A DNA stretch of 53,507 bases, from IMG/VR virus record IMGVR_UViG_3300031804_000500, positions 1 to 53,507 of that record; one strand, given 5' to 3'. Each line of letters begins with the position of its first letter. Position 1 is the stretch's first letter. A model generated the notes under the pieces. It ran no database searches. It worked only from the letters and a program-made list of their open reading frames with translations, and had not been told where the DNA came from. Source of the stretch: a virus. Lineage: Duplodnaviria; Caudoviricetes. The translations under genes and the position numbers were made by a program. This document shows, in pieces, positions 3,435 to 43,198 of this stretch.

Positions 3435-4321
3435 ACTGCCATCTCCGCCTTAATGCTTGGCATGGGATCATAATCCGCTAACACAAAATCTGTTATATTA
3501 TAGTTGTCCCACTTCTTTCCAACCGATATAAACAGTTCGGGTAATTCTTTTGGTGTGCGAGTTAATTGCTCTGTAACTGCCTCCATATGGTTATTGTATA
3601 TATGACAGTCACCACCTGTCCATATAAAGTCTCCTATATACAAATCACATTCGCGAGCAATGATTTGTGTAAGTAGACTGTAACTTGCTATGTTAAACGG
3701 TACGCCAAGGAACATATCACACGATCGTTGGTATAATTGACAACTTAATTCCATATTTTTATTAACGTTAAATTGGAACATCATGTGGCATGGTGGCAGG
3801 GCCATTTTATCTAGTTCTGCAGGATTCCATGCTGTAACAATATGCCTACGGCTAAAAGGATCCTCTTTTAAACCACATATTACGTCGGTTATTTGATCTT
3901 TGTATAGGAATACGCTACGAGGGTGGGGGCCTGTGGGCGTCTGTGCTCCGTGCTCGCCTACGTGGCGCCATGACCGCCACTGTATACCGTACACCCTACC
4001 TAGATCGCCAGTAGTGAGCGATCTAGAGGCCCAGTACGGCGCATTTAAGTTGGCAGTCCATATAGTATTAACATTATCGTCGCGTGTACCATGGGTTATT
4101 TCTGCTAATCTACGCTCATTTCCTGAGCCTTCTAGCATCCATAGCAATTCCCCTACAACAGCATTCCATGCCAACTTTTTGGTAGTAACAGCAGGAAATC
4201 CTTCACGTAAATTAAACCGCATTTGATATCCAAATACACTCTTTGTACCTACGCCTGTGCGGTCGTCTTTGTCGTCGCCGTTATCTAATATATGCTGTAA
4301 TGCATCTAGGTATTGTTTCAT
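3431..4321 (-). CDS. thyA: Thymidylate synthase
   Basis: DRTGVGT, LPPCH catalytic Cys, YQRSCD, VPFNIASY (Asn, consistent with dUMP specificity), C-terminal MAV. Start moved to MKQYL at 4321. Confidence 0.97.
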   Translation of the reverse strand: MKQYLDALQHILDNGDDKDDRTGVGTKSVFGYQMRFNLREGFPAVTTKKLAWNAVVGELLWMLEGSGNERRLAEITHGTRDDNVNTIWTANLNAPYWASRSLTTGDLGRVYGIQWRSWRHVGEHGAQTPTGPHPRSVFLYKDQITDVICGLKEDPFSRRHIVTAWNPAELDKMALPPCHMMFQFNVNKNMELSCQLYQRSCDMFLGVPFNIASYSLLTQIIARECDLYIGDFIWTGGDCHIYNNHMEAVTEQLTRTPKELPELFISVGKKWDNYNITDFVLADYDPMPSIKAEMAV

Positions 4322-5781: not shown

Positions 5782-6081
5782 TTATTCTTTAAAATGCTTA
5801 CCTAATACACTGTTGACGTATTGCATTACATTGTTTTTGAGTTTATCACTATCCATTACTATTTCAATATCATCAACAATAGGCCCTATAGCCTCTAGTC
5901 GTGGATCATCGAAAAGATTATCAGTATCAGTAATATTCTTTAATTCGGCAGGGATAATTTTAAGTTTGCGGCCATCAGTAAGATGCAATACAATCCAATG
6001 AATATATTCTATTGGTATATTGTCAAATTGAATATCTTCTAAAATATTATTAAAAGACTTATCTTTTTTGTATATTGCCAT
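5782..6081 (-). CDS. Hypothetical protein
   Basis: Fits the gene tiling; TAAATA motif upstream. Confidence 0.6.
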   Translation of the reverse strand: MAIYKKDKSFNNILEDIQFDNIPIEYIHWIVLHLTDGRKLKIIPAELKNITDTDNLFDDPRLEAIGPIVDDIEIVMDSDKLKNNVMQYVNSVLGKHFKE

Positions 6082-21476: not shown

Positions 21477-24119
21477 CTACGCCCAGTCAAATAATTTATC
21501 AAATGCTTCGTTGGTCTTACTTTTACGTAAATCCCACTTTAATACACCCAACAAATTGTCTATTTTTTTGTCTACAATTGAATTTTCCATTGCAGTATCA
21601 TCGAATGGAAGTTCTTTATACCAACTTGGTATGCGTAACTCATCTATAGGATATGCTACACTAGTCATATTCATTGGATTATTGCGTAACTTACAAACAA
21701 TAGTTTTCATACCATCTACAATTTCTAAACAATAATTGTCTGAATACATTTTACGCAATTTGTTCCAATTAATGGCAGCCATAGCATGTCCTATACCACA
21801 ATGCCCAGTTTTCTCATATACTTTAGTATGCCTTGTTAAATTGTTAACACGTTTGGGTGTGCCTTTTTCCCAGTCTGGTTTGTTTCTAAAGTCATTGCGA
21901 AACTCTCTTATCTTATTGATAATATTTTCTTCTGTTGCTTTTGTTAATGTCATTAACAATAATTCACTAAGAAAGTCTTGCATATATGCAGGAGTATCTG
22001 ATCTTTTAAGATCTAATCCCATTGCTTTTATTTTTCCCGGCACACCTATATCTACTCTGTTACCTTCTAAATCATATACTAATACAGCATATCTTTTTTT
22101 AGTAATGAATATACCTGCAGAACTAATAGTTTCTTTACTTGCTGAAATAAGTTTACCTTGATCCCTTGGTACATTAAATGCTTTTGACATAAAAGACGGA
22201 AATGTAGTATTTGCTTCATTACATATTACATCATATAATTCTATTGCTTTTTCTTTATTCCATTCTAATTTACCATCAATGATATCTTTTTCAAATACAG
22301 GATATGCTGAAAAATAACAACTATCTGTGTCCCCATATATAATTGTTTCACCTATATGATCATATTTGCCAGTTAATATTTTGTTTATTTCTGCACTCAT
22401 ATGTCGCACAATGTTACGACCACATAGTGTTGTTGATTGCCCTAAACGTTGATCAAAGAAACGTGAACCTGGATTTAACAATGCACCATATAAACTATTC
22501 AAGTTAATTTTTTTAACTAACTGTCGCTTATCCCAAAACTCATATTCTATATTATTATTGTGCTGTTGTGCTTGTTTTGCTTTACGTTGAAGTTCTATAC
22601 GTTCTTGATACCAACGCTCTAGTAATCCTGGAATGACTCCTTTCTTGTCATACTTAAATATAGTACCATTAGCAGTTATCATCCATTTATGTTCGCCATG
22701 GAATACCATATCATATATTTGTGCTCCGGTGGCTTCTAATGTACTTTTATCCTCAAAGTCTAAATTTAGAATAACATTAGTATCCTTTTCCATGACTAAA
22801 TCATATTCGAGACTAGAGAATTTACCTTCCCATGCTTCAGCAATTTTATAGTTATGACTTTCTAATAATTCTATTGTTAGTGTTTGTCTGACTTGCCCTA
22901 CAATAGTTTCTGGACTCATATTCAAACTACGTAAAATAGATGGATACAGACTGCTTATATCAATTGATCCAATCCATTGATGCATTCCTTTTTTAGGAAA
23001 TGCTACGTATGCTCCGGCGGCTGTTGTTGTATCTTTATCGTGTACTTTATCGGGTACAATTAGATTTTGTTTATGTGCTTCATTTATTATTCCTTGATCG
23101 GTAACTGCCACAGCACCCATTGTAGTTTGTATTAGCACTGTATTAGCGTGTGCTAATACATTAGACAAGTCTATAAACTGTAACTTGTCATCAAACTTTT
23201 TAAGTAATATACAATCTTGTCTATTATATTCTATAAACGTTTCAAAATCATTTTTAAACAATTGATCCAACGTTCCATCATATGCAATTTTACGTTCACC
23301 TAATTCATATTCTCCTATTGCATCTAACGAATATGAATGCATTTCATGATATGTATATTTTCTATATAGTTCTAAATAATCTAAATGAATACGACCTTTT
23401 AAATCATAACTTGATTGTTCCCTTCCATACTTTTCATATTCGCGTTTTTTAGGTTTTTGACCCCATAAACAAAACTCACGTGTTCGCTGTTTACCTAATA
23501 CGCGAGCAATACGATTAACCATATATGGTATATCAAATCCTTCTGAGTTCCAACCACTTAACACATCTGCATCATCTATTAATGATAAAAACGTTTCTAA
23601 TAATTCTTTTTCATTATGACATAAAATAGTATCGTTGAATTTGTCGACAATATCTTGTCCTTCAAATGTTGTTAATGTATTTGGTTTAATACAAATAGTT
23701 ATTAACTTATCTATCCAACTCAAGTATAAAGATATAGCATTAACAGGTGCAAATGCATCTGCTGGATCAGCGAATCCTTGCTTGATATCAAAGTCCACTT
23801 CAATATCAAAAAAGCATTTGTGTAAAGTAGGTGCTTCCCCATCTATGTAATTTTCACTAAGACATTTGAAAATAGGATTTATATCCGATTCATATAATTT
23901 TTTATGTTTGTATAATTTTTTTTCTCTATGGAAATGTTTACCGGTAGTCGTACTGACACGACTCAAAGGATCCCCATATATTGAAGAGAACTTACCTTTG
24001 CGGTCAAGATAGTAAAAAACATATTGAGCAGGGAATTTCCGGAAGTTTCTCTTTCCTCCTATTCTCTCGACAACGTGGATTGTATCGTGATCCCTATCAA
24101 AAAGAGCATCAACGTACAT
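21477..24119 (-). CDS. Family B DNA polymerase
   Basis: Exonuclease FDIE, WNSEGFD, YNRQD; polymerase DISSLYPS, KINLNSLYG, YGDTDS, KKRY. Confidence 0.97.
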   Translation of the reverse strand: MYVDALFDRDHDTIHVVERIGGKRNFRKFPAQYVFYYLDRKGKFSSIYGDPLSRVSTTTGKHFHREKKLYKHKKLYESDINPIFKCLSENYIDGEAPTLHKCFFDIEVDFDIKQGFADPADAFAPVNAISLYLSWIDKLITICIKPNTLTTFEGQDIVDKFNDTILCHNEKELLETFLSLIDDADVLSGWNSEGFDIPYMVNRIARVLGKQRTREFCLWGQKPKKREYEKYGREQSSYDLKGRIHLDYLELYRKYTYHEMHSYSLDAIGEYELGERKIAYDGTLDQLFKNDFETFIEYNRQDCILLKKFDDKLQFIDLSNVLAHANTVLIQTTMGAVAVTDQGIINEAHKQNLIVPDKVHDKDTTTAAGAYVAFPKKGMHQWIGSIDISSLYPSILRSLNMSPETIVGQVRQTLTIELLESHNYKIAEAWEGKFSSLEYDLVMEKDTNVILNLDFEDKSTLEATGAQIYDMVFHGEHKWMITANGTIFKYDKKGVIPGLLERWYQERIELQRKAKQAQQHNNNIEYEFWDKRQLVKKINLNSLYGALLNPGSRFFDQRLGQSTTLCGRNIVRHMSAEINKILTGKYDHIGETIIYGDTDSCYFSAYPVFEKDIIDGKLEWNKEKAIELYDVICNEANTTFPSFMSKAFNVPRDQGKLISASKETISSAGIFITKKRYAVLVYDLEGNRVDIGVPGKIKAMGLDLKRSDTPAYMQDFLSELLLMTLTKATEENIINKIREFRNDFRNKPDWEKGTPKRVNNLTRHTKVYEKTGHCGIGHAMAAINWNKLRKMYSDNYCLEIVDGMKTIVCKLRNNPMNMTSVAYPIDELRIPSWYKELPFDDTAMENSIVDKKIDNLLGVLKWDLRKSKTNEAFDKLFDWA

Positions 24120-28051: not shown

Positions 28052-29463
28052 TCTTCCATGCCGCCCTCTTGTATCCATTTTATTAATTTAACCATTACAC
28101 CATTTGGAAGAGATTGATAAAGATCTCTATCTTTCTTATTAAATGCTATAACATCAATTTCTGGATGGTCAAGTGGTGTGCCACCCTGTACTTGTTGTGG
28201 TGAAACAAGAGGTCTTTGTCCACCTTGGTCGGGTCCTTGCCCTGGTCTAAGACCCCAATCTGGCTGATGGTTGGTTCGCGTACCGAGTTTACCTTTACTA
28301 TATACTGGAGCTAGGTGATGTTCTAATCCTAATGTCTCTGCTTCAGCAGAACTTACTTTTTTAAAGTTTACAAATGCAGTTGGATCATCTTCACCAGTAG
28401 CACTACCTAAAGCACTACCTGTACTACGATATTTTACTAATACAAATTGTCCTGTCGGCATTCGAATATACACTTGTTTTGGGGCAAGTAAATCTAATTC
28501 AGTTAACTGTTGATCTTCATTCATTGCTTCCCAGTCATCATTAGAAATATACATGTCTGTATCTGGATCGTAGTACATACCTTCTTTAGGATCATAATAA
28601 ACTACTCTACCATTACGTGCTCGAAATGGGCCTTCTAATCCAGGACGTTCGCCATAATGTTCTGTGTCTATTGGTGGTAATGTAATATGTCCTTCGTCTA
28701 CTGCTGGTGCTGGACCATAATCATGCTCCCATGGCTTTTCTTTATTCCATTTTACATGCTCTGGTTTAGAATCAACTTTGCGGAGTTCCGACGAGGTATA
28801 CTTTTTAAGTTCGTCCATTCTATTTTTTGTATGTGGGGCATTTTTCCAATAACCAAACATATATCGTAATCCAGCAGGACCGTGTATAAGTTCTGTGCGT
28901 TCGTGATAGTTTTCATCTATTTCTGTAATTATGGAATTTATCATTTTTATAGCATTTGCAAAATGATCTATTTCTTCATTAACACCTTCTTTATTTGCCA
29001 TATCAATAACAGTATGATGATCATACTGTTCAGGTTTCGCGCCGTATTCTTGCATAGCAGGGTCATATCCATTGAAATGATCTTTTAATTCAGACATAGG
29101 AACTATTATAGGGCCTGTGCTTTGTGATATTAACATAAGATCTTTACCCCATTCACCGTGTTCCTGTGCAACGTTTTCTACTTTTGGATTTGTTAAAAGT
29201 TCTTGTGCTTGTTGATAAGATGGAATATTTTTTGCTAATACAGCACCAGCATCGCCTTTTGATTTATAACGACCTTCACCTGTTGAAGGATCTTCAGTGC
29301 CATACCATTCATGATATTGTGCATGCCATATAATAGCATACGGGCCTTCGTCTGTTAATTGAGCAATATTTTCTTGCCCATTATCAGTTTCCCAGTCTTC
29401 CTCATTATGTCTGACAGCTTGAGATCGACCATCGGCCTCGGTCATTACTTCTTTAAATTTCAT
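28048..29463 (-). CDS. Multi-module putative virion internal protein
   Basis: MKFKEVMTE start; modules separated by VNE/VDE/LTE; includes a YYDPKEGMYYDPDTDMY aromatic repeat. Confidence 0.6.
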   Translation of the reverse strand: MKFKEVMTEADGRSQAVRHNEEDWETDNGQENIAQLTDEGPYAIIWHAQYHEWYGTEDPSTGEGRYKSKGDAGAVLAKNIPSYQQAQELLTNPKVENVAQEHGEWGKDLMLISQSTGPIIVPMSELKDHFNGYDPAMQEYGAKPEQYDHHTVIDMANKEGVNEEIDHFANAIKMINSIITEIDENYHERTELIHGPAGLRYMFGYWKNAPHTKNRMDELKKYTSSELRKVDSKPEHVKWNKEKPWEHDYGPAPAVDEGHITLPPIDTEHYGERPGLEGPFRARNGRVVYYDPKEGMYYDPDTDMYISNDDWEAMNEDQQLTELDLLAPKQVYIRMPTGQFVLVKYRSTGSALGSATGEDDPTAFVNFKKVSSAEAETLGLEHHLAPVYSKGKLGTRTNHQPDWGLRPGQGPDQGGQRPLVSPQQVQGGTPLDHPEIDVIAFNKKDRDLYQSLPNGVMVKLIKWIQEGGMEE

Positions 29464-30227
29464 TAATATTCACCCGAATAACTTGTATGGAAATTATCTA
29501 TTGGTCCCATGTCTTCTACATTTGCTACGTCTAGTGGTATAAATTGACCTGTCATTGGATTCCACATAAAAAGTTTAAATTGAGGGCCTGCTTCAGGTGC
29601 TATGTCGCTGCCACAGCCACAGTTTTCATAAACATGTACTGATTCTTCAGTATTTCTAATAGGAACTTTTCTTCCACTCATATAACGTTTTAAAAGACCT
29701 TGCTTTTGTGCAGAACTAAAAACTTTCATAATTAATTCTATATCTTCTTTACTAACATTTGGCTTTCTCTCGTCAAATTTTTCTAATGTCTTCCAGACTG
29801 TAGATGCTAAATCTATATCTTTTATTCTTGGAAGAAGATCTCTTACAACATATAATTGAAATCGGCCTTCGTCGGAATAACCCATTGGATAACTTTCCTT
29901 ACCAGTTTTTGGACCAAATATAACTTTGTCCTCATCTTCTTTTATTTTAAGTTGGATGATATTTTTAAATTCGGGTGATTCTGTAATCATATCCAATATT
30001 AATTCTTTGGTATCTTTATCCATTTTCTGCAGAAGAGCAGTTACCTTATTAGCATTACCTTCTTGAATATAATTTGCTGTATTGTTATAATTGTTAATGT
30101 TTGTTAGACCTTCACCGGTTGAAGATTGTAAATATTCGTCTGTTTCTTGTGCATACGTACGAAGATTTTCAGCTATTTGCTGTAACTGTTCAACCAATGA
30201 ACTTTTGATCAGTGAACGAAATTTCAT
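29463..30227 (-). CDS. Putative late/virion protein
   Basis: GATAAATA motif and AGGAG Shine-Dalgarno upstream. Confidence 0.65.
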   Translation of the reverse strand: MKFRSLIKSSLVEQLQQIAENLRTYAQETDEYLQSSTGEGLTNINNYNNTANYIQEGNANKVTALLQKMDKDTKELILDMITESPEFKNIIQLKIKEDEDKVIFGPKTGKESYPMGYSDEGRFQLYVVRDLLPRIKDIDLASTVWKTLEKFDERKPNVSKEDIELIMKVFSSAQKQGLLKRYMSGRKVPIRNTEESVHVYENCGCGSDIAPEAGPQFKLFMWNPMTGQFIPLDVANVEDMGPIDNFHTSYSGEY

Positions 30228-30391: not shown

Positions 30392-30419
30392 ATTATACAC
30401 TATTTTAATGATTTGTCAA
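30392..30419 (-). promoter_or_regulatory. Sigma70-type promoter
   Basis: TTGACA-N16-TATAAT. Confidence 0.65.
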
Positions 30420-30438: not shown

Positions 30439-30527
30439 TGGCTCCGGGGGGTGGATTCGAACCACCACGCCCTCATCTGGACACTAGATAAACTGTCTAG
30501 CATGTCTACCGATTTCATCACCCCGGA
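30439..30527 (-). tRNA. Atypical tRNA-Asn(GUU) with a long variable arm and a non-canonical anticodon loop
   Basis: Cloverleaf: acceptor TCCGGGG/CCCCGGA, G73, encoded CCA; D arm ATG-AAATCGGTAGA-CAT; anticodon arm CTAGA-CAGTTTA-TCTAG; 17-nt variable region; T arm GGTGG-TTCGAAT-CCACC. Confidence 0.85.
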
Positions 30528-30535
30528 TCATTTTT

Positions 30536-31354
30536 TTATCCATTAACTACATCAAATGCTCGTATAAGTCGTGTCATTCCAATACCGCCGCCTGTGCGAG
30601 GTATGAAATCTTTACTTAAAAACTCTTCAAGTTCTGCTTCTACACGCTCTTTACCAAACTGACCATATAGTAAATCTGCATACATTCCATTACTGATTGT
30701 ATGGAATTGATCACGCATTTCGTCTGTATCTGAACTACGTTCTGCACTACCTATTGTTTCCTGGCCTGCAATTATAACATCTATTTTTGCAGCTGTACCA
30801 TCACCATTTTGTTTCATATTCCAAAAAGGCGATGTATGATTTGGAAAGTTCATTATCATTTGAGCATTACCATGTTTTCCGTACATAGCATTTTCTTCTG
30901 CATGTGTTAATTCTTCAACATTAAATTCTATTGCCCAATCTTCATAGTTTTTATCTACTACACTACCAAAACCTAAATATGCACATAATTCTATTTCCAT
31001 TTTATGTAAATCATCTATAGTGCCGGGCATTTCAAATTCAAACATTGGAAATATTAAATCATGTCTACCTTCTATTATGTTAGGTTCTTGTCTATAGGAT
31101 GTGGAAACACAAAAAAAGCCAGGTACTTCTGGCTTTGATAATAATTCATGTTCTAACCACATTTGGCCTGTTTGTGGAAGCGGCCAAACATTACCGGCGT
31201 AATTATAAGTTGAAACTGTTGTTGGATCTTCGCATGCCGCCAATATGCTTAATCTATTTTGTGTGTGTACTTCTAAGAAACCTTTTTCTAAAAAAAAGGA
31301 CCTTAATAGGCCCGTTGCTTCAGTAAATTTCCTTGGATCGATTAACTGCGTCAT
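30536..31354 (-). CDS. Class IIb aminoacyl-tRNA synthetase paralog (AsnRS/AspRS-like), catalytic domain only
   Basis: Motif 1 FFLEKGFLEV, motif 2 SYRQEP...RH...F, ETIGSAER, motif 3 GGGIGMTRL; 272 aa with no N-terminal anticodon-binding OB fold. Confidence 0.85.
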   Translation of the reverse strand: MTQLIDPRKFTEATGLLRSFFLEKGFLEVHTQNRLSILAACEDPTTVSTYNYAGNVWPLPQTGQMWLEHELLSKPEVPGFFCVSTSYRQEPNIIEGRHDLIFPMFEFEMPGTIDDLHKMEIELCAYLGFGSVVDKNYEDWAIEFNVEELTHAEENAMYGKHGNAQMIMNFPNHTSPFWNMKQNGDGTAAKIDVIIAGQETIGSAERSSDTDEMRDQFHTISNGMYADLLYGQFGKERVEAELEEFLSKDFIPRTGGGIGMTRLIRAFDVVNG

Positions 31355-31419
31355 TTTTTTCTTTCTCCTTCAGTCAAAAAAAATCAAACTAATTTCTTTT
31401 GTTTATTTATGCAAAAAGA

Positions 31420-31983
31420 TTATTTCTGGTGGATACCGTATCCCTTGTGTCCTAGCAATGACATAAACATGCTAGGAAGATTACCATCTACAGTTCTTAC
31501 ACTTTCTGGCAATGCATCCCAACTAACAAGATGTGGATGTGTTTTTTGTTCTTCGTTTATTTCTTGACCATATCTCCATCCTGTTGCAACCTTATGATCT
31601 ACCCAACGGTTATGTCTATACTTGGCAAAGTCATTTGCTAAATGTTCATAATGATTATCGCCTATTTCTTCATTGACCTCATCTAAATTTGCTTCCATTT
31701 CAAGAGAATTTGTGCCTTCGATTAAAAAGTCAGTATTTTCATCTATTAATTTATTAATAGCTTCAGCAACAATATCGCCCTGTTCTATATCCATATCTTC
31801 TGCTAAATTAATATCATAACAGTGTGCATCATCTAATAGATGATGTACCATAGAAACATTATCTTCATCTGGTTGAACAGTTTCGCCTAACTGTTCTTTA
31901 ATAGTATTATAATATTTTTTAATCACATCGGCATCTAGTTCATTTTCAACGACTAATCTAATGTGATGTTTAAATGCTTCCAT
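31420..31983 (-). CDS. RyR-domain protein
   Basis: HNRWV..K...GWRYG......KTHPHLVSWDALPE. Confidence 0.8.
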   Translation of the reverse strand: MEAFKHHIRLVVENELDADVIKKYYNTIKEQLGETVQPDEDNVSMVHHLLDDAHCYDINLAEDMDIEQGDIVAEAINKLIDENTDFLIEGTNSLEMEANLDEVNEEIGDNHYEHLANDFAKYRHNRWVDHKVATGWRYGQEINEEQKTHPHLVSWDALPESVRTVDGNLPSMFMSLLGHKGYGIHQK

Positions 31984-40179: not shown

Positions 40180-40974
40180 TTATTTTAATTCGTTATAAGT
40201 AACACATTTGATGATCTTTTTTATTGAATTGGGTGCTATCATTTTTAAGACAAGAACATCTTCTATTGCTTTACAATATATACTACAAATAGACCATTTA
40301 TATATGTATCTTAATCCACCACCTCTACGGCCAAAGCTTGATCCCGGAGTTGTAGGACCCCATGCTCCTGCACGACTCGGAGTTCCCATATGACTTCCGT
40401 GGGAAGCCATTCCTACTTTATGATGAAAATTTATCCGTTTAACATTAGGACTATACATATATTCAGTCTTATCTATATTGTCTAAATAGTTTTTAATTTT
40501 AACAATATCCTTTTCTACAAAATCATGATCTCCATAAAATTCTACTTTCCATCTATACTGTTTAAACCAAAGATTGTCTTTAGCAACCACTTCATAATCT
40601 TCTACCATTAAGTCACTATGAGTATCATTCATGGGACCATATGCATCTATAACTAAATTTTTAAAAGATTTAACAAAACATAATGTCCAAAAAGGATCTT
40701 TAAAATAAAAAGTTGTTGTCCATTCACGCCGCATTTTAAAATCTTTACCTTTTTGTAACTTATTTTGTCTAAGATACATTTCGATTTTAAGTATATCTTC
40801 ATCAGTTAATAAAGGCGCATCTTCTTCTGGTGTTTTTCTAAAGTGAAGAAAGCCATAATTAGATGTATGATGCAATCCAAACAGACGTACTTTATAAAGA
40901 AAGTTATTATAATAAGCACGTGAAGCCACGTGGTATGTACAACACTGTTTTAGTTCATCCAGTTTGCTTTGCAT
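40180..40974 (-). CDS. Hypothetical protein
   Basis: 264 aa ORF in the gene tiling. Confidence 0.65.
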   Translation of the reverse strand: MQSKLDELKQCCTYHVASRAYYNNFLYKVRLFGLHHTSNYGFLHFRKTPEEDAPLLTDEDILKIEMYLRQNKLQKGKDFKMRREWTTTFYFKDPFWTLCFVKSFKNLVIDAYGPMNDTHSDLMVEDYEVVAKDNLWFKQYRWKVEFYGDHDFVEKDIVKIKNYLDNIDKTEYMYSPNVKRINFHHKVGMASHGSHMGTPSRAGAWGPTTPGSSFGRRGGGLRYIYKWSICSIYCKAIEDVLVLKMIAPNSIKKIIKCVTYNELK

Positions 40975-43198
40975 TTACTTTTACTTCGTCTGTTTCTAAA
41001 TCGATGCCTATAACAATTTCACAATCTCGTACATCGTTATAAACTATTAGTTTACTAATTGGCTTTTTAATTTTTGTATCTATTAATCTTTTCATAGGCC
41101 TTGCTCCCATAGTAGGAGTAAATCCTTTTTTACATAACCAATCCAATAAATCCTTTTGCGGTACTAATGTAATATGTCGAGGTTTTAATAACTCTTCTAC
41201 TTCGTTTAAGAATTTAGTAGCAATTCTCGAAATAAACTTTTCGTCTAGTTTATTAAAATTAACAGTAGCATCTAATCTATTACGAAATTCAGGAGCAAAA
41301 AACTTTTTAACAGCAACACCTGCGGCATGATCATCTGTGCCTCCTGCAAACCCAATTGCTACTTTTTCACTATCAGATGCTCCTAAATTAGATGTCATTA
41401 TTAAGATAATGTTTTTAGTAGATATGGTTTTTCCGTTACTAGATGTTACCACTCCACTATCCATTATTTGTAATAATATGTTCAAGACATCTTGATGTGC
41501 TTTTTCTACTTCATCTAATAACAATACACAATTAGGATTGTTTTCTATTTCATTAATAAGTTTACCACTGCCTGCACCGCCGTCTTCATATCCTACATAG
41601 CCAGGTGGTGATCCTATTAATTTTGCTATTGAATGTCTTTCTTGATATTCACTCATATCAAAACGGACAAGTTTCAATGCTAAATTATCAGCAAGTTGTT
41701 TTGCTGTTTCTGTTTTACCTACACCAGTAGGTCCGGTAAACAAAAATGAACCAATTGGCTTTTCAGGATCTTTTAATCCTGCTTGTGATATATGAATTGC
41801 ATCTGTTAACTTTTCAATTGCTCCGTCTTGTCCAAATACTTTGTTCTTAATTTTTTCATCTATGTTTATTACAGAACTAGAACTTGTTTCAGTTGTATTG
41901 ATTATTTCTAGAGGAATGCGAGTTTGATGTGCTACTTCTCGTTTAATATCTATATCTTCTATGTGTGTTTTACGTTCTGTTATAGGTAGTATACGTTGTC
42001 TAGCCAATGCACTATCTATTAAGTCTAATGCTTTATCTGGCAGATACTTATTCATCATATGCTTAACACTTAATTCTACTGCTGTTTTTATAGATTTTCG
42101 TTCAATAGTAATGCCATGGAAGTCTTCATAATATGATGCTAGACCTTCTATAATTTTAATTGTATCTTCAGCACTAGGTTGTTGTATATCTAGTTTTGTA
42201 AATCGTCTTACTAATGCAGAATCCTTTTCAAAATATTTTCTATAATCTTCATGTGTTGTTGCGCCTATACAATGTAGTTTCCCTTTTTCCAATGCAGGTT
42301 TTAACATATTAGCAACATCCATACTACCTTGGCCACCGGTACCGGCGCCCATTATCATGTGTATTTCGTCTATGAATAAAATACATCCTTCTTTACTTTG
42401 TAATACGTCTAATACTGTTTTAAGACGTTCTTCTAAATCTCCACGATATTTTGTTCCTGCCAATAACGCACTTATGTCTAATAGATAAACTGTATTACCT
42501 TTTACAGTATCCGGTACTTGATCTTCTGATATAAGTTTTGCTAATCCTTCTGCCATTGCAGTTTTACCAACGCCTGATTCACCTACCATTATTACATTAT
42601 TTTTCTTTCTTCGTGCAAGGACATGAAGTAATTCATGCAACTCTTTTTCTCTTCCTATAATGGGATCTATATTTCCTTCTTTTGCTTGTGCATTTAAATC
42701 TACACAAAATTCTTGTAGTATTTTATCTGCATCCATTCCTTCAATGCTACCTTGACCTTGAAATTCATCGACAAGTTGTTGCTGAATTAATTTAATAATA
42801 CTATCACGATCCACTCCGTGCTTTGCTAGAAAATAAAATGCATGGGAATTTCTTTCTGCTAATATACTTAAAAATAAATCCTTTGCTTGAATAGCATTTC
42901 TTCGATTAAATAATGCTTGGGTAAATGCTCGATTAAATGTTCTTTCTAATGTTGTTGTTTTACGAGGTTCCACAGTCCCTGGTACAATTATATCACTCAT
43001 GTTTGTATTAACATGATTAAGTATAGATATACGAATTTCTTCTGGATTAGGTCCAACACTTCCTACTATATGTTTAACTTCTTCTTCTTCTAATAAAACA
43101 GCTAACAGATGTTCTATTGTTACATACTCGTGGTTTAACGATTTGGCTAATCCAAACGCTCTACTTATAATATGTTCTACTTTATCTCGATCAGGCAT
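40955..43198 (-). CDS. clpA: ClpA-like Hsp100 ATPase
   Basis: Clp N-domain (HEYVTIEHLL), two Walker A motifs (GESGVGKT, GPTGVGKT), ClpP-docking IGF loop, no ClpB middle domain. Confidence 0.9.
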   Translation of the reverse strand: MPDRDKVEHIISRAFGLAKSLNHEYVTIEHLLAVLLEEEEVKHIVGSVGPNPEEIRISILNHVNTNMSDIIVPGTVEPRKTTTLERTFNRAFTQALFNRRNAIQAKDLFLSILAERNSHAFYFLAKHGVDRDSIIKLIQQQLVDEFQGQGSIEGMDADKILQEFCVDLNAQAKEGNIDPIIGREKELHELLHVLARRKKNNVIMVGESGVGKTAMAEGLAKLISEDQVPDTVKGNTVYLLDISALLAGTKYRGDLEERLKTVLDVLQSKEGCILFIDEIHMIMGAGTGGQGSMDVANMLKPALEKGKLHCIGATTHEDYRKYFEKDSALVRRFTKLDIQQPSAEDTIKIIEGLASYYEDFHGITIERKSIKTAVELSVKHMMNKYLPDKALDLIDSALARQRILPITERKTHIEDIDIKREVAHQTRIPLEIINTTETSSSSVINIDEKIKNKVFGQDGAIEKLTDAIHISQAGLKDPEKPIGSFLFTGPTGVGKTETAKQLADNLALKLVRFDMSEYQERHSIAKLIGSPPGYVGYEDGGAGSGKLINEIENNPNCVLLLDEVEKAHQDVLNILLQIMDSGVVTSSNGKTISTKNIILIMTSNLGASDSEKVAIGFAGGTDDHAAGVAVKKFFAPEFRNRLDATVNFNKLDEKFISRIATKFLNEVEELLKPRHITLVPQKDLLDWLCKKGFTPTMGARPMKRLIDTKIKKPISKLIVYNDVRDCEIVIGIDLETDEVKVNAKQTG

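What the first reader, a model, noticed from the sequence alone, without database searches (positions are those of the whole stretch)
30439..31354. Anticodon-blind AsnRS/AspRS paralog paired with a chimeric, non-canonical tRNA-Asn: candidate orthogonal aminoacylation system
Seen: a 272-aa class II synthetase catalytic core (motifs 1-3, no anticodon-binding domain) ends 8 nt before an 89-nt tRNA on the same strand. The tRNA has a GUU anticodon, a U1-A72 pair and G73, but also a 17-nt stem-forming variable region and a Leu-type D arm. Its anticodon loop is CA-GUU-UA instead of the usual CU-GUU-AA. Known: U1-A72, G73 and GUU are bacterial tRNA-Asn features. Long variable arms are normally limited to Leu/Ser/Tyr/Sec tRNAs. 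U33 and purine 37 are near-invariant and support decoding, TGT recognition (U33-G34-U35) and t6A37. Catalytic-only class II paralogs such as EpmA and archaeal AsnRS2/asparagine synthetase have non-translational roles. Inference: the enzyme may recognise this tRNA through the acceptor stem and variable arm, forming a private pair. The pair could supply Asp/Asn for non-ribosomal transfer, act in tRNA-dependent asparagine synthesis, or resist or decoy host anticodon nucleases.
Basis: partly seen in the sequence, partly recalled or inferred. Interest (0 to 1): 0.88.

Follow-up and report, generated by a model that had tools for sequence, protein, structure and literature searches.

The report
AsnRS-like enzyme plus odd tRNA
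Many marine phages carry a stripped-down relative of asparaginyl-tRNA synthetase followed at once by a strange long-armed asparagine tRNA; the pair is real, but the enzyme looks more like an unrecognised pyrimidine-pathway enzyme than a private tRNA charger.

Summary
A 272-aa class IIb synthetase core (30536-31354, minus strand) ends 8 nt before an 89-nt tRNA (30439-30527). The tRNA has GUU, U1-A72, G73, an encoded CCA, a 17-nt extra arm and the loop CAGUUUA.

This is not a sequencing error. The same pair occurs in cyanophages P-SSM2, P-SSM5 and P-SSM7 and in many marine viral contigs:
- 80 of 86 enzyme loci carry the tRNA.
- 113 of 116 tRNA loci have the enzyme upstream; the other 3 were too short to judge.
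- Across 104 distinct tRNAs, G34, U35, G73 and U1-A72 never vary. Position 33 (U91/A6/C5/G2) and position 37 (U77/A21/C4/G2) do.

The "private synthetase" reading is weakened. The same enzyme, with 94 identically conserved residues, occurs without any such tRNA in giant-virus contigs and in cellular genomes. There it is fused to or adjacent to dihydroorotate dehydrogenase and PyrE-PyrF. No carrier tested has pyrC (0 of 11) or pyrB (0 of 6), and only 1 of 5 has carB.

Best reading (0.45): an AsnRS-derived ligase that feeds dihydroorotate synthesis, tied in phages to a Leu-bodied Asn-identity tRNA that host enzymes charge. Why the tRNA never occurs without the enzyme is unexplained. I found no paper describing either part.

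The parts
30536..31354 (-). 272-aa AsnRS-derived class IIb catalytic core without an anticodon-binding domain. PGAP names cellular homologs 'amino acid--tRNA ligase-related protein'.
   Evidence: AF2 model pLDDT 95.6. Foldseek top hits are AspRS/AsnRS catalytic domains, TMq about 0.76. A profile search of PDB sequences gives AsnRS 2.6e-14, archaeal AspRS 1.3e-11, AS-AR 7e-6. hhalign against E. coli AsnRS gives probability 93.5. Name.
30439..30527 (-). 89-nt long-arm tRNA: U1-A72, G73, CCA encoded, anticodon GUU, loop CAGUUUA, 17-nt variable arm, Leu-like D arm and body.
   Evidence: Scores 91.7 bits against the family covariance model R1. The best non-family hits of R1 in two huge phage genomes are tRNA-Leu genes.
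30528..30535 (-). 8-nt spacer between the stop codon and tRNA position 1. No promoter-like or terminator-like site lies between the two genes, so co-transcription is likely (inferred).
   Evidence: Across relatives the tRNA starts 4-11 nt after the stop in most loci.
31365..31369 (-). AGGAG Shine-Dalgarno-like motif 10 nt upstream of the ATG of the enzyme gene.
   Evidence: Read from the sequence.
30392..30419 (-). Perfect sigma-70-type promoter match (TTGACA, 16 nt, TATAAT; 12 of 12), 20 nt after the tRNA. It marks the start of the next transcription unit (gene 29463-30227) and hence the end of the enzyme-tRNA unit.

Best explanation
The locus is a two-gene phage module, probably transcribed as one unit.

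(1) The 272-aa protein descends from the catalytic core of AsnRS. It keeps an intact adenylate-forming active site, but it works as a small-molecule ATP-dependent ligase, not as a tRNA synthetase. In cells and giant viruses the same enzyme belongs to the distal pyrimidine pathway. Most likely it produces dihydroorotate, or its immediate precursor, from an asparagine/aspartate-type substrate, and so stands in for the missing CarAB-PyrB-PyrC steps. In the phage it would be an auxiliary metabolic gene that pushes host Asp/Asn into pyrimidines for DNA synthesis.

(2) The downstream RNA is a genuine tRNA-shaped molecule built on a tRNA-Leu body. It carries the complete bacterial asparagine identity set: G34-U35-U36 and G73 for AsnRS or non-discriminating AspRS, and U1-A72 for GatCAB. 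G73 also blocks LeuRS. It is therefore charged by host enzymes, not by the mini enzyme. It serves AAY decoding while the enzyme draws on the same amino-acid pool. The drifting positions 33 and 37 are read as tolerated, or as selected to escape host anticodon nucleases.

Shown: the anatomy, the conservation, the linkage in both directions, the fusions, the gene neighbourhoods and the phyletic pattern. Inferred: the reaction, who charges the tRNA, and why the two genes stay together.
For: The pair is real. 80 of 86 enzyme loci carry the tRNA. 113 of 116 tRNA-pattern loci have the enzyme upstream, 3 are too short and 0 lack it. The cloverleaf covaries.

The enzyme does not depend on the tRNA.
- In the tree a phage clade (85 rows: 78 with tRNA, 6 without, 1 unknown; support 99) stands against a giant-virus-type clade (49 rows, 0 with tRNA; support 96).
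- 0 of 32 GVMAG loci and 0 of the cellular-type loci have the tRNA.
- 94 of 272 positions are identical at 85% or more in both groups, including every motif. Only 8 positions are clade-specific and none is catalytic.

Pyrimidine link.
- DHODH (PF01180) is fused N-terminally in 9 of 15 longer homologs.
- DHODH is adjacent in 11 of 69 cellular loci and PyrE-PyrF in 12 of 69, across several phyla.
- Giant-virus locus L230 carries DHODH, PyrE-PyrF and the enzyme together.
- Carriers lack pyrC_multi over the cut-off in 0 of 11 genomes, pyrC_dimer in 0 of 5 and pyrB in 0 of 6; carB is present in 1 of 5. Controls have pyrB and carB in 14 of 14.
- In one order, 5 of 61 genomes lack both pyrB and pyrC, and both carriers are among those 5. 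In a second family, 10 of 51 genomes lack pyrB and both carriers are among those 10.

Asn-type pocket. Aligned to E. coli AsnRS, the family has Leu where I recall AspRS having Lys198, Glu where I recall Asp233, and conserved motif 2 and motif 3 arginines (residue roles recalled).

tRNA identity rules come from passages of Giege and Eriani 2023 (PMC9976931). Labile anticodon loops in phage tRNAs as nuclease evasion come from passages of van den Berg 2023 (PMC10264068).
Against: - Nothing here explains why the tRNA is never seen without the enzyme, while the enzyme is seen without the tRNA (6 of 85 rows in the phage clade).
- The enzyme keeps the flipping loop and the motif 2 loop, which in class IIb synthetases (recalled for the motif 2 loop) admit the acceptor end. 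The tRNA keeps exactly the acceptor features an AsnRS core would read.
- U37 in 74% and a non-U base at 33 in 12.5% of distinct sequences are very unusual for a decoding tRNA.
- The complete genomes of P-SSM7, P-SSM2 and P-SSM5 encode no DHODH, and the 53.5-kb window encodes neither DHODH nor PyrE-PyrF. The phage enzyme would therefore have to feed host PyrD.
- Three genomes lack pyrB and pyrC and also lack the enzyme.
- The phyletic tests rest on few independent lineages, on MAGs and on curated cut-offs.
- The proposed chemistry (Asn plus CO2, or Asp plus a carbamoyl/urea donor) is speculation. No assay, and no paper that I could find, supports it.
Confidence: 0.45

Rival explanations
1. Private orthogonal pair. 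The anticodon-blind mini-AsnRS charges the long-arm tRNA with Asn through U1-A72, G73 and the Leu-type body. This gives the phage its own Asn-tRNA supply, independent of host AsnRS or GatCAB and of host tRNA nucleases. In cells and giant viruses the enzyme would have a second, tRNA-free job.
For: AsnRS-like pocket and intact motifs. The tRNA never occurs without the enzyme. The spacer is 4-11 nt in most loci. U1-A72 and G73 are invariant in 104 of 104. Eight positions are conserved only in the tRNA-linked clade, such as W140 and L228. P-SSM2 has this tRNA as the only one ARAGORN found in the 6.8-kb locus.
Against: The same catalytic and loop residues occur in clades with no such tRNA. Cellular carriers mostly have a normal AsnRS (4 of 5) and place the gene with pyrD and pyrE-pyrF. 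An anticodon-blind enzyme gives no reason for an invariant GUU next to labile positions 33 and 37. The variable arm ranges from 11 to 39 nt and switched class at least 18 times, so it is a poor fixed recognition element.
Confidence: 0.18
2. tRNA-dependent metabolism. The tRNA is a non-decoding carrier. Host ND-AspRS/GatCAB or AsnRS loads it with Asp or Asn, and the AsnRS-derived enzyme takes the amino acid from the acceptor end as its substrate for pyrimidine synthesis. Phages whose hosts have little free Asn bring their own carrier.
For: The conserved set (GUU, G73, U1-A72, CCA) is exactly what host charging and amidation enzymes read, while the ribosome-critical U33 and purine 37 are free to vary. 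Loss of A37 removes t6A, reported in yeast as an antideterminant against AspRS (PMC9976931). The tRNA depends on the enzyme and not the reverse. The enzyme keeps its acceptor-end loops in all clades.
Against: No tRNA-Asn lies near the gene in 60 cellular loci. Dihydroorotate keeps a free carboxylate, so an ester-activated substrate gives no chemical advantage. Host AsnRS and AsnB status was not tested. There is no precedent.
Confidence: 0.12
3. Asparagine supply module. The enzyme is an ammonia-dependent asparagine synthetase, an independent analogue of archaeal AS-AR. The tRNA is an extra tRNA-Asn for an AT-rich, AAU-rich phage.
For: The architecture is the same as AS-AR, a truncated AsnRS core. 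There is a weak PDB profile hit to 3p8t (E 7e-6) and a weak hit to NCBIfam PRK06462. 2 of 5 cellular carriers have AsnRS but no AsnB over the cut-off. AAT 583 versus AAC 200 codons in the window.
Against: It does not explain the DHODH fusions, the pyrD and pyrE-pyrF neighbourhoods, or the loss of pyrB, pyrC and carB in carriers. 3 of 5 carriers already have AsnB. Asn is only 5.7% of window codons. E. coli AsnA is unrelated at profile level (probability 2.5).
Confidence: 0.1
4. No functional link. The tRNA is a hitch-hiker on a roughly 1-kb mobile cassette, or a nuclease decoy or 3'-end processing element. It arose once next to the gene and travels with it only because the two are 8 nt apart.
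For: The tRNA-linked genes form essentially one clade. The cassette sits in different genomic contexts in P-SSM7, P-SSM2 and the window. Homing-endonuclease and intein insertions in the gene show mobility.
Against: All four stems covary and the identity nucleotides are invariant over enzyme divergence down to about 60% identity, so the RNA is under strong selection. There are 6 enzyme-only rows but 0 tRNA-only loci. An Asn-identity tRNA beside an AsnRS-type protein is unlikely by chance.
Confidence: 0.08

Closest known systems
Archaeal asparagine synthetase A (AS-AR, 'AsnS-like AsnRS-related protein', PDB 3P8T/1NNH)
   Same: A class IIb AsnRS/AspRS catalytic core of about 290 aa that has lost the anticodon-binding domain and works on a small molecule instead of tRNA (role recalled; the PDB title is seen).
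   Different: Only a weak profile match (E 7e-6 over residues 61-198, against 2.6e-14 for AsnRS). NCBIfam PRK06462 scores 20.5 bits against a cut-off of 389. AS-AR has no pyrimidine gene context or linked tRNA that I know of.
Canonical asparaginyl-tRNA synthetase (for example PDB 2XTI, 1X54, 8TC8; E. coli AsnS)
   Same: The best sequence-profile and fold matches. Motifs 1-3, flipping-loop Glu, SGQ-type motif, motif 2 Arg-His and motif 3 Arg all align.
   Different: No N-terminal OB-fold. NCBIfam asnS scores 25.8 bits against a cut-off of 414. The core is shorter (272 aa), with an 11-residue family-specific insert before motif 3. It occurs in genomes that already have AsnRS.
Dedicated synthetase paralog plus anomalous tRNA pairs (ProRSx with tRNA-ProA in Streptomyces; PylRS with tRNA-Pyl)
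   Same: A synthetase-like gene genetically tied to an atypical tRNA whose body and anticodon do not match the usual rules (recalled from memory; no call tested this).
   Different: In those systems the enzyme is shown to charge the tRNA, and the pair does not occur as an enzyme-only form inside metabolic operons. Here charging is untested and the comparative evidence points away from it.
Phage tRNAs with anticodon-loop substitutions that escape host anticodon nucleases (van den Berg et al. 2023, PMC10264068)
   Same: A phage-encoded tRNA with a normal anticodon but an altered loop context. Positions 33 and 37 changed at least 14 and 12 times on the enzyme tree.
   Different: Those tRNAs otherwise have canonical bodies and are not tied to one protein gene. 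Here the body is Leu-like, the extra arm is 11-39 nt, and U37 is the majority state.
Type II tRNAs (Leu, Ser, Tyr, Sec)
   Same: Long extra arm, 3-bp D stem and a Leu-like D loop. The family model's best outside hits are tRNA-Leu genes (55-65 bits).
   Different: G73 instead of A73, U1-A72, and a GUU anticodon. By the passages read, G73 is an antideterminant for LeuRS and TyrRS.

Membership tests
Asparaginyl-tRNA synthetase (AsnRS) | Class II catalytic core with motifs 1-3 and an AsnRS-type pocket | tested here: met
   PF00152 E 1.3e-14. hhalign to E. coli AsnRS gives probability 93.5, with aligned motif 2 Arg, Arg-His, a Glu at the site I recall as AspRS Asp233, and motif 3 Arg. Foldseek TMq about 0.76.
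Asparaginyl-tRNA synthetase (AsnRS) | N-terminal OB-fold anticodon-binding domain | tested here: not met
   The protein starts at the position aligned to E. coli AsnRS residue 142. Pfam finds only the core. No longer homolog carries an OB fold; the extensions are DHODH, GIY-YIG, an intein or low-complexity sequence.
Asparaginyl-tRNA synthetase (AsnRS) | Scores over the curated equivalog cut-off | tested here: not met
   NF003037 25.8 bits against 414; TIGR00457 22.5 against 342.6.
Asparaginyl-tRNA synthetase (AsnRS) | Transfers Asn to tRNA-Asn | not testable with these tools
   Needs an aminoacylation assay.
Archaeal-type asparagine synthetase A (AS-AR) | Scores as a family member | tested here: not met
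   NF005055 20.5 bits against 389. The PDB profile hit to 3p8t is only E 7e-6.
Archaeal-type asparagine synthetase A (AS-AR) | Fills the Asn-synthesis gap in genomes without AsnB/AsnA | tested here: inconclusive
   2 of 5 carriers lack asnB over the cut-off and 3 of 5 have it.
Bacterial AsnA (E. coli type) | Sequence or profile homology | tested here: not met
   hhalign probability 2.5, E 0.019.
EpmA/GenX (EF-P lysine ligase) | Scores as a family member | tested here: not met
   NF006828 17.4 bits against 264; TIGR00462 15.1 against 286.9.
Bacterial tRNA-Asn | Identity set G34-U35-U36 plus G73, and U1-A72 for GatCAB | tested here: met
   Window tRNA. 104 of 104 distinct relatives have G34, U35, G73 and U1-A72; 102 of 104 have U36. 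Rules from PMC9976931 passages.
Bacterial tRNA-Asn | Class I body (4-5 nt variable loop), U33 and A37 (t6A site) | tested here: not met
   17-nt variable arm, A33 and U37 in the window. Across the family the arm is 11-39 nt, and A37 occurs in only 21 of 104. In the E-value-mode Rfam scan the only match at the tRNA is tRNA-Sec, 23.3 bits, below its gathering score of 47.
tRNA-Leu | A73 discriminator and a Leu anticodon | tested here: not met
   G73 and GUU in all. Only the body resembles tRNA-Leu.
Proposed: pyrimidine-pathway ligase replacing CarAB/PyrB/PyrC | Genomic association with pyrD and pyrE-pyrF | tested here: met
   Fusions with PF01180. Neighbours in 11 and 12 of 69 cellular loci. Giant-virus loci L216, L220, L230 and L278. 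Not met in the window itself or in the P-SSM phages.
Proposed: pyrimidine-pathway ligase replacing CarAB/PyrB/PyrC | Carriers lack the canonical early steps | tested here: met
   pyrC 0 of 11, pyrB 0 of 6, carB 1 of 5 carriers. Non-carriers: pyrB in 54 of 59 and 41 of 49. Caveat: three genomes lack pyrB and pyrC and also lack the enzyme.
Proposed: pyrimidine-pathway ligase replacing CarAB/PyrB/PyrC | Forms dihydroorotate or a precursor | not testable with these tools
   Needs an enzyme assay or complementation.

The most novel reading that the evidence does not exclude
An AsnRS-derived enzyme family carries out a so far undescribed, carbamoyl-phosphate-independent entry into pyrimidine synthesis, building dihydroorotate from asparagine or aspartate. 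Marine phages run this pathway on a dedicated, non-decoding carrier tRNA. Host AsnRS, or ND-AspRS plus GatCAB, loads the Leu-bodied GUU tRNA, and the enzyme takes its substrate from the tRNA's acceptor end. That would be a tRNA-dependent nucleotide-precursor pathway encoded by viruses.
Probability: 0.12. Interest if true: 0.95.

Novelty: new variant of a known kind. Interest (0 to 1): 0.85.

Why it matters
Three points would each be of wide interest if they hold.

1. A very abundant marine viral gene has sat in cyanophage genomes since 2005-2010 labelled only 'tRNA ligase'. It may be a missing enzyme of pyrimidine synthesis. It may replace three textbook steps (CarAB, PyrB, PyrC) in Bacteroidota, CPR, DPANN, Chlamydiae-type genomes and giant viruses.

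2. A whole family of tRNAs breaks two near-universal rules: class I tRNA-Asn with a short variable loop, and U33 with purine 37. Yet the same family holds the Asn identity nucleotides absolutely fixed. This is a natural experiment on which parts of a tRNA are read by synthetases and which by the ribosome.

Each alternative can be tested with cultured systems, such as P-SSM2 or P-SSM7 on Prochlorococcus NATL strains, or Moheibacter.

Tried and rejected
Considered and rejected:
- Sequencing error or decaying pseudogene for A33/U37. Rejected because the loop variants recur in many independent contigs and all stems covary.
- tRNA-Sec, the only Rfam hit. Rejected: 23.3 bits against a gathering score of 47, a 7-bp acceptor stem and a GUU anticodon.
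- E. coli-type AsnA and EpmA. Rejected on scores.
- tRNA as an integration site with the enzyme as cargo. No empty site was seen: 0 of 113 tRNAs lack the enzyme.
- A special tRNA elsewhere in genomes that lack it next to the gene. None was found in two complete huge-phage records, where the top hits are ordinary tRNA-Leu. None was found in five enzyme-only phage-clade contigs, but those are only 7-26% complete.

Led nowhere:
- The search for related loci with the distant homologs P0213 and P0152 found no relatives.
- A single-sequence search of PDB gave only two marginal hits, so I used a profile instead.
- Literature searches for the pair, for a long-arm tRNA-Asn, for giant-virus truncated AsnRS and for an alternative dihydroorotate route found no description. 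Sullivan 2010 (PMC3037559, passages) lists 'tRNA ligase' only in a gene table. Maruyama and Ueki 2016 (PMC5127864, passages) note an AsnA-like protein without an anticodon domain in HaV53; I did not test whether it belongs to this family.
- I could not establish whether Prochlorococcus or SAR11 hosts have AsnRS or AsnB. No handle to such genomes was available, and PMC11357015 says nothing on it.
- One search was wasted. I set E <= 1e-300 to shorten the output and nothing could match; I repeated it properly.
- I did not use complex prediction, read laying, the look-up of sequencing runs or the protein-atlas search.
- I did not open any supplementary files. Those of Sullivan 2010 and van den Berg 2023 may list these tRNAs.
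Full report
**What is at the coordinates.** The minus strand carries a 272-aa ORF (30536-31354). Its only Pfam match is the class II D/K/N synthetase core (PF00152, E 1.3e-14, residues 11-265). NCBIfam gives only sub-threshold hits to AsnRS, AspRS, archaeal asparagine synthetase A, LysRS and EpmA (25.8 bits or less against cut-offs of 264-468). Eight bases after the stop codon begins the only tRNA ARAGORN finds in the 53.5-kb window (30439-30527, 'Asn gtt'). Parsing it gives U1-A72, G73, an encoded CCA, a 3-bp D stem, the anticodon loop C-A-G-U-U-U-A, a 17-nt variable arm with a 4-bp stem, and a normal T arm. Rfam does not accept it as a tRNA; its only hit is tRNA-Sec at 23.3 bits against a gathering score of 47. 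No promoter-like or terminator-like site separates the two genes. A perfect TTGACA-16-TATAAT match follows 20 nt after the tRNA.

**The tRNA is a conserved family, not an accident.** The cyanophages P-SSM7, P-SSM2 and P-SSM5 have a 62-65% identical protein annotated 'tRNA ligase', followed at once by an 85-88-nt 'tRNA-Asn'. IMG/VR holds at least 597 stretches that encode the protein. The protein search returned 8000 of 8000 scored candidates, which was its cap. Of the window plus 85 loci, 79 carry the tRNA within 450 nt downstream by a strict structural rule, and one more (L066) is found by covariance model. On 55 distinct sequences the cloverleaf pairs in 99.5% of cells, 19 of 22 pairs show compensatory changes, 0 of 500 shuffles reach this, and slid controls pair in 40-58% of cells.

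Over 104 distinct sequences:
- U1-A72, G73, G34 and U35: 104 of 104.
- U36: 102 of 104. The other two are GUC.
- Encoded CCA: 101 of 104.
- Position 33: U91, A6, C5, G2.
- Position 37: U77, A21, C4, G2.
- Variable arm: 11-39 nt.

On the enzyme tree, positions 33 and 37 and the arm-length class changed at least 14, 12 and 18 times. The family model's best hits outside the family are tRNA-Leu genes at 55-65 bits, against 72-103 bits for complete family members. A33 in the window is a minority state; U37 is the norm.

**Linkage in both directions.** Of the 116 new loci, 113 have the enzyme gene upstream on the same strand (match end 8-233 nt before the tRNA). The other 3 have too little upstream DNA, and none lacks the enzyme. 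This sample covers only one acceptor/D-arm subtype.

**The protein.** The AlphaFold model is confident (pLDDT 95.6). Its best structural matches are AspRS and AsnRS catalytic domains (TMq about 0.76, 17-22% identity). A family profile finds AsnRS first (2xti, 2.6e-14), then archaeal AspRS (1.3e-11), archaeal asparagine synthetase AS-AR (7e-6) and EpmA (1.5e-5). Aligned to E. coli AsnRS (probability 93.5), it keeps the flipping-loop Glu, the S/T-G-Q motif, motif 2 Arg and Arg-His, the Glu-x-Glu strand, the Glu/Arg of the amino-acid pocket and motif 3 Arg. It has Leu where I recall AspRS having Lys198, and Glu where I recall Asp233 (residue roles recalled). That is an Asn-type rather than an Asp-type pocket. 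An 11-residue insert with a conserved FGKERV sequence precedes motif 3. E. coli AsnA is unrelated at profile level (probability 2.5).

**The family is not confined to phages, and elsewhere it has no tRNA.** Longer homologs are fusions, not full synthetases. Nine of 15 carry an N-terminal dihydroorotate dehydrogenase domain (PF01180, E 1e-39 to 7e-52). Others carry a GIY-YIG/NUMOD3 endonuclease, an intein or low-complexity tails. Using a fusion protein as query brought in many giant-virus MAG contigs. None of the 32 GVMAG-named loci has the tRNA, whereas 21 phage-type loci in the same batch do. Two huge phages (735 and 484 kb) have the enzyme but no such tRNA anywhere in the record.

In the species-genome collection, 94 stretches encode the protein. 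The 50-61% identical copies lie on long chromosomal contigs of Bacteroidota (Moheibacter and other Weeksellaceae, Aureispira, Chitinophagales), Patescibacteria, DPANN archaea, Chlamydiae, Dependentiae and some Alphaproteobacteria and Myxococcota. PGAP calls it 'amino acid--tRNA ligase-related protein'. Only six short, phage-like MAG contigs have the tRNA. Of 60 cellular loci, none has any tRNA-Asn nearby.

A tree separates a phage clade (85 rows: 78 with tRNA, 6 without, 1 unknown; support 99) from a giant-virus-type clade (49 rows, 0 with tRNA; support 96) (FastTree, midpoint root for drawing only). Ninety-four of 272 positions are identically conserved (at least 85%) in both the tRNA-linked and tRNA-less groups, including every motif above. 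Only eight positions are clade-specific, and none is catalytic. The enzyme therefore almost certainly does the same chemistry with and without the tRNA.

**What the chemistry may be.** In 69 cellular loci the recurrent neighbours across phyla are a DHODH (11 loci) and a PyrE-PyrF fusion (12 loci). Pfam confirms these in Chitinophagales, Aureispira and an alphaproteobacterium. Giant-virus locus L230 has DHODH, PyrE-PyrF and the enzyme side by side, L220 and L278 have PyrE-PyrF adjacent, and L216 is the fusion.

Genomes that carry the enzyme lack the canonical early pyrimidine genes:
- pyrC_multi over the cut-off: 0 of 11 carriers.
- pyrC_dimer: 0 of 5.
- pyrB: 0 of 6.
- carB: 1 of 5.

The 14 control genomes all have pyrB and carB. 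In a sample of 61 genomes from one order, the enzyme occurs in 2. pyrC is found in 55 and pyrB in 54. Five genomes lack both, and both carriers are among those five (hypergeometric 10/1830). In 51 genomes of a second family, 2 carry the enzyme, 10 lack pyrB, and both carriers are among those ten (45/1275). asnS and asnB give no clean pattern: asnS is present in 4 of 5 carriers and asnB in 3 of 5.

Taken together, the fusion, the neighbourhoods and the phyletic complementarity point to an enzyme that supplies dihydroorotate to PyrD without CarAB, PyrB or PyrC. By analogy with AsnA, a class II fold that amidates an activated carboxylate (recalled), and given the Asn-type pocket, two routes are chemically conceivable: asparagine plus CO2, or aspartate plus a ureido donor. 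This is inference only. I found no paper on such a route.

**What this means for the tRNA.** By the passages read in Giege and Eriani 2023 (PMC9976931), the anticodon plus G73 is the bacterial Asn identity set. U1-A72 is the GatCAB determinant. G73 is an antideterminant for LeuRS. t6A37 in yeast tRNA-Asn guards against AspRS. The invariant nucleotides of this family are exactly those read by AsnRS, ND-AspRS and GatCAB. The two positions the ribosome cares about most are the ones that drift.

My preferred reading is that host enzymes charge this tRNA and that it supports AAY decoding. I attribute the loop drift to tolerance or to escape from anticodon nucleases, a proposal made for other phage tRNAs (PMC10264068, passages). 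This reading does not explain why the tRNA never occurs without the enzyme, which remains the central open fact.

**Context and caveats.** The window is a 15%-complete IMG/VR virus record with a T4-type DNA polymerase, an ATP-dependent protease and an HNH endonuclease. It has no DHODH or PyrE-PyrF. The complete P-SSM genomes also lack DHODH. Three genomes lack pyrB and pyrC and also lack the enzyme. The carriers are few independent lineages and mostly MAGs, and absence calls rest on curated cut-offs. Residue roles in AspRS and AsnRS, the AsnA mechanism, and the ProRSx and PylRS comparisons are recalled, not tested.

**Verdict.** The module is unusual on two counts, the enzyme and the tRNA, and neither is described in the literature I could search.

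Noticed in passing
P0271-P0277, P0125, P0283; L216:2501-4365: Fusion proteins of 584-661 aa with an N-terminal dihydroorotate dehydrogenase domain and a C-terminal AsnRS-like core, found on giant-virus MAG contigs.
   Followed up: yes
P0281 and P0284: The enzyme gene is sometimes preceded by or fused to a GIY-YIG/NUMOD3 homing endonuclease, or interrupted by a LAGLIDADG (intein-type) domain. These are signs of mobility.
   Followed up: no
L013/L014:3859-3958, L020:3868-3966: Three loci (two distinct tRNA sequences) have the same tRNA body with loop CUGUCGA, that is a GUC (Asp) anticodon with G37, still with U1-A72 and G73.
   Followed up: partly
for example L046:3848-3948, L079:3874-3974: About half of the tRNAs have an extra arm of 24-39 nt, a roughly 10-bp hairpin, with a conserved loop region (consensus near UACUGCAAUAUAUUUA). 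This is much longer than in Leu, Ser or Tyr tRNAs.
   Followed up: partly
L046:2528-2914, L056:993-1375, L059/L061:2480-2895: ARAGORN calls permuted tmRNA genes with tag peptides ending in ALAA within about 100-1650 nt upstream of the enzyme gene in several phage contigs.
   Followed up: no
L002 (AY939844.2): In the P-SSM2 record the tRNA-Asn feature (PSSM2_199) is annotated about 2 kb away, inside a CDS (locus 5825-5910). ARAGORN finds the tRNA at locus 3813-3900, directly after the ligase gene. The coordinates were probably not updated between record versions.
   Followed up: partly
window 30392-30419 (-): A perfect 12-of-12 sigma-70 consensus promoter match lies 20 nt after the tRNA, ahead of gene 29463-30227. 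Several related loci instead show TATAAATA-type (T4 late-like) motifs after the tRNA.
   Followed up: partly
P0169, P0173, P0183, P0267 (alignment A2): Some distant family members have lost the motif 3 arginine and parts of motif 2. They may be inactive paralogs.
   Followed up: no
G018, G049, G061: Three genomes of the order sampled lack pyrB, pyrC and the AsnRS-like enzyme. They are either auxotrophs or use yet another route.
   Followed up: partly
L328:3952-5655: In the Chitinophagales chromosome a 567-aa Amidohydro_3 protein follows DHODH and the enzyme on the same strand. It may be a further pathway member.
   Followed up: no
window 31420-31983 (-), 40955-43198 (-), 21477-24119 (-): Neighbouring genes: a 187-aa protein of unknown function (phrog_5154) directly upstream of the enzyme; a 747-aa ATP-dependent protease (phrog_4871); a T4-type DNA polymerase (phrog_262).
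   Followed up: partly
L284/L285: Two tRNA-linked enzyme genes branch outside the main phage clade on a long branch (0.42). This is either a second lineage with the tRNA or a placement artefact.
   Followed up: no
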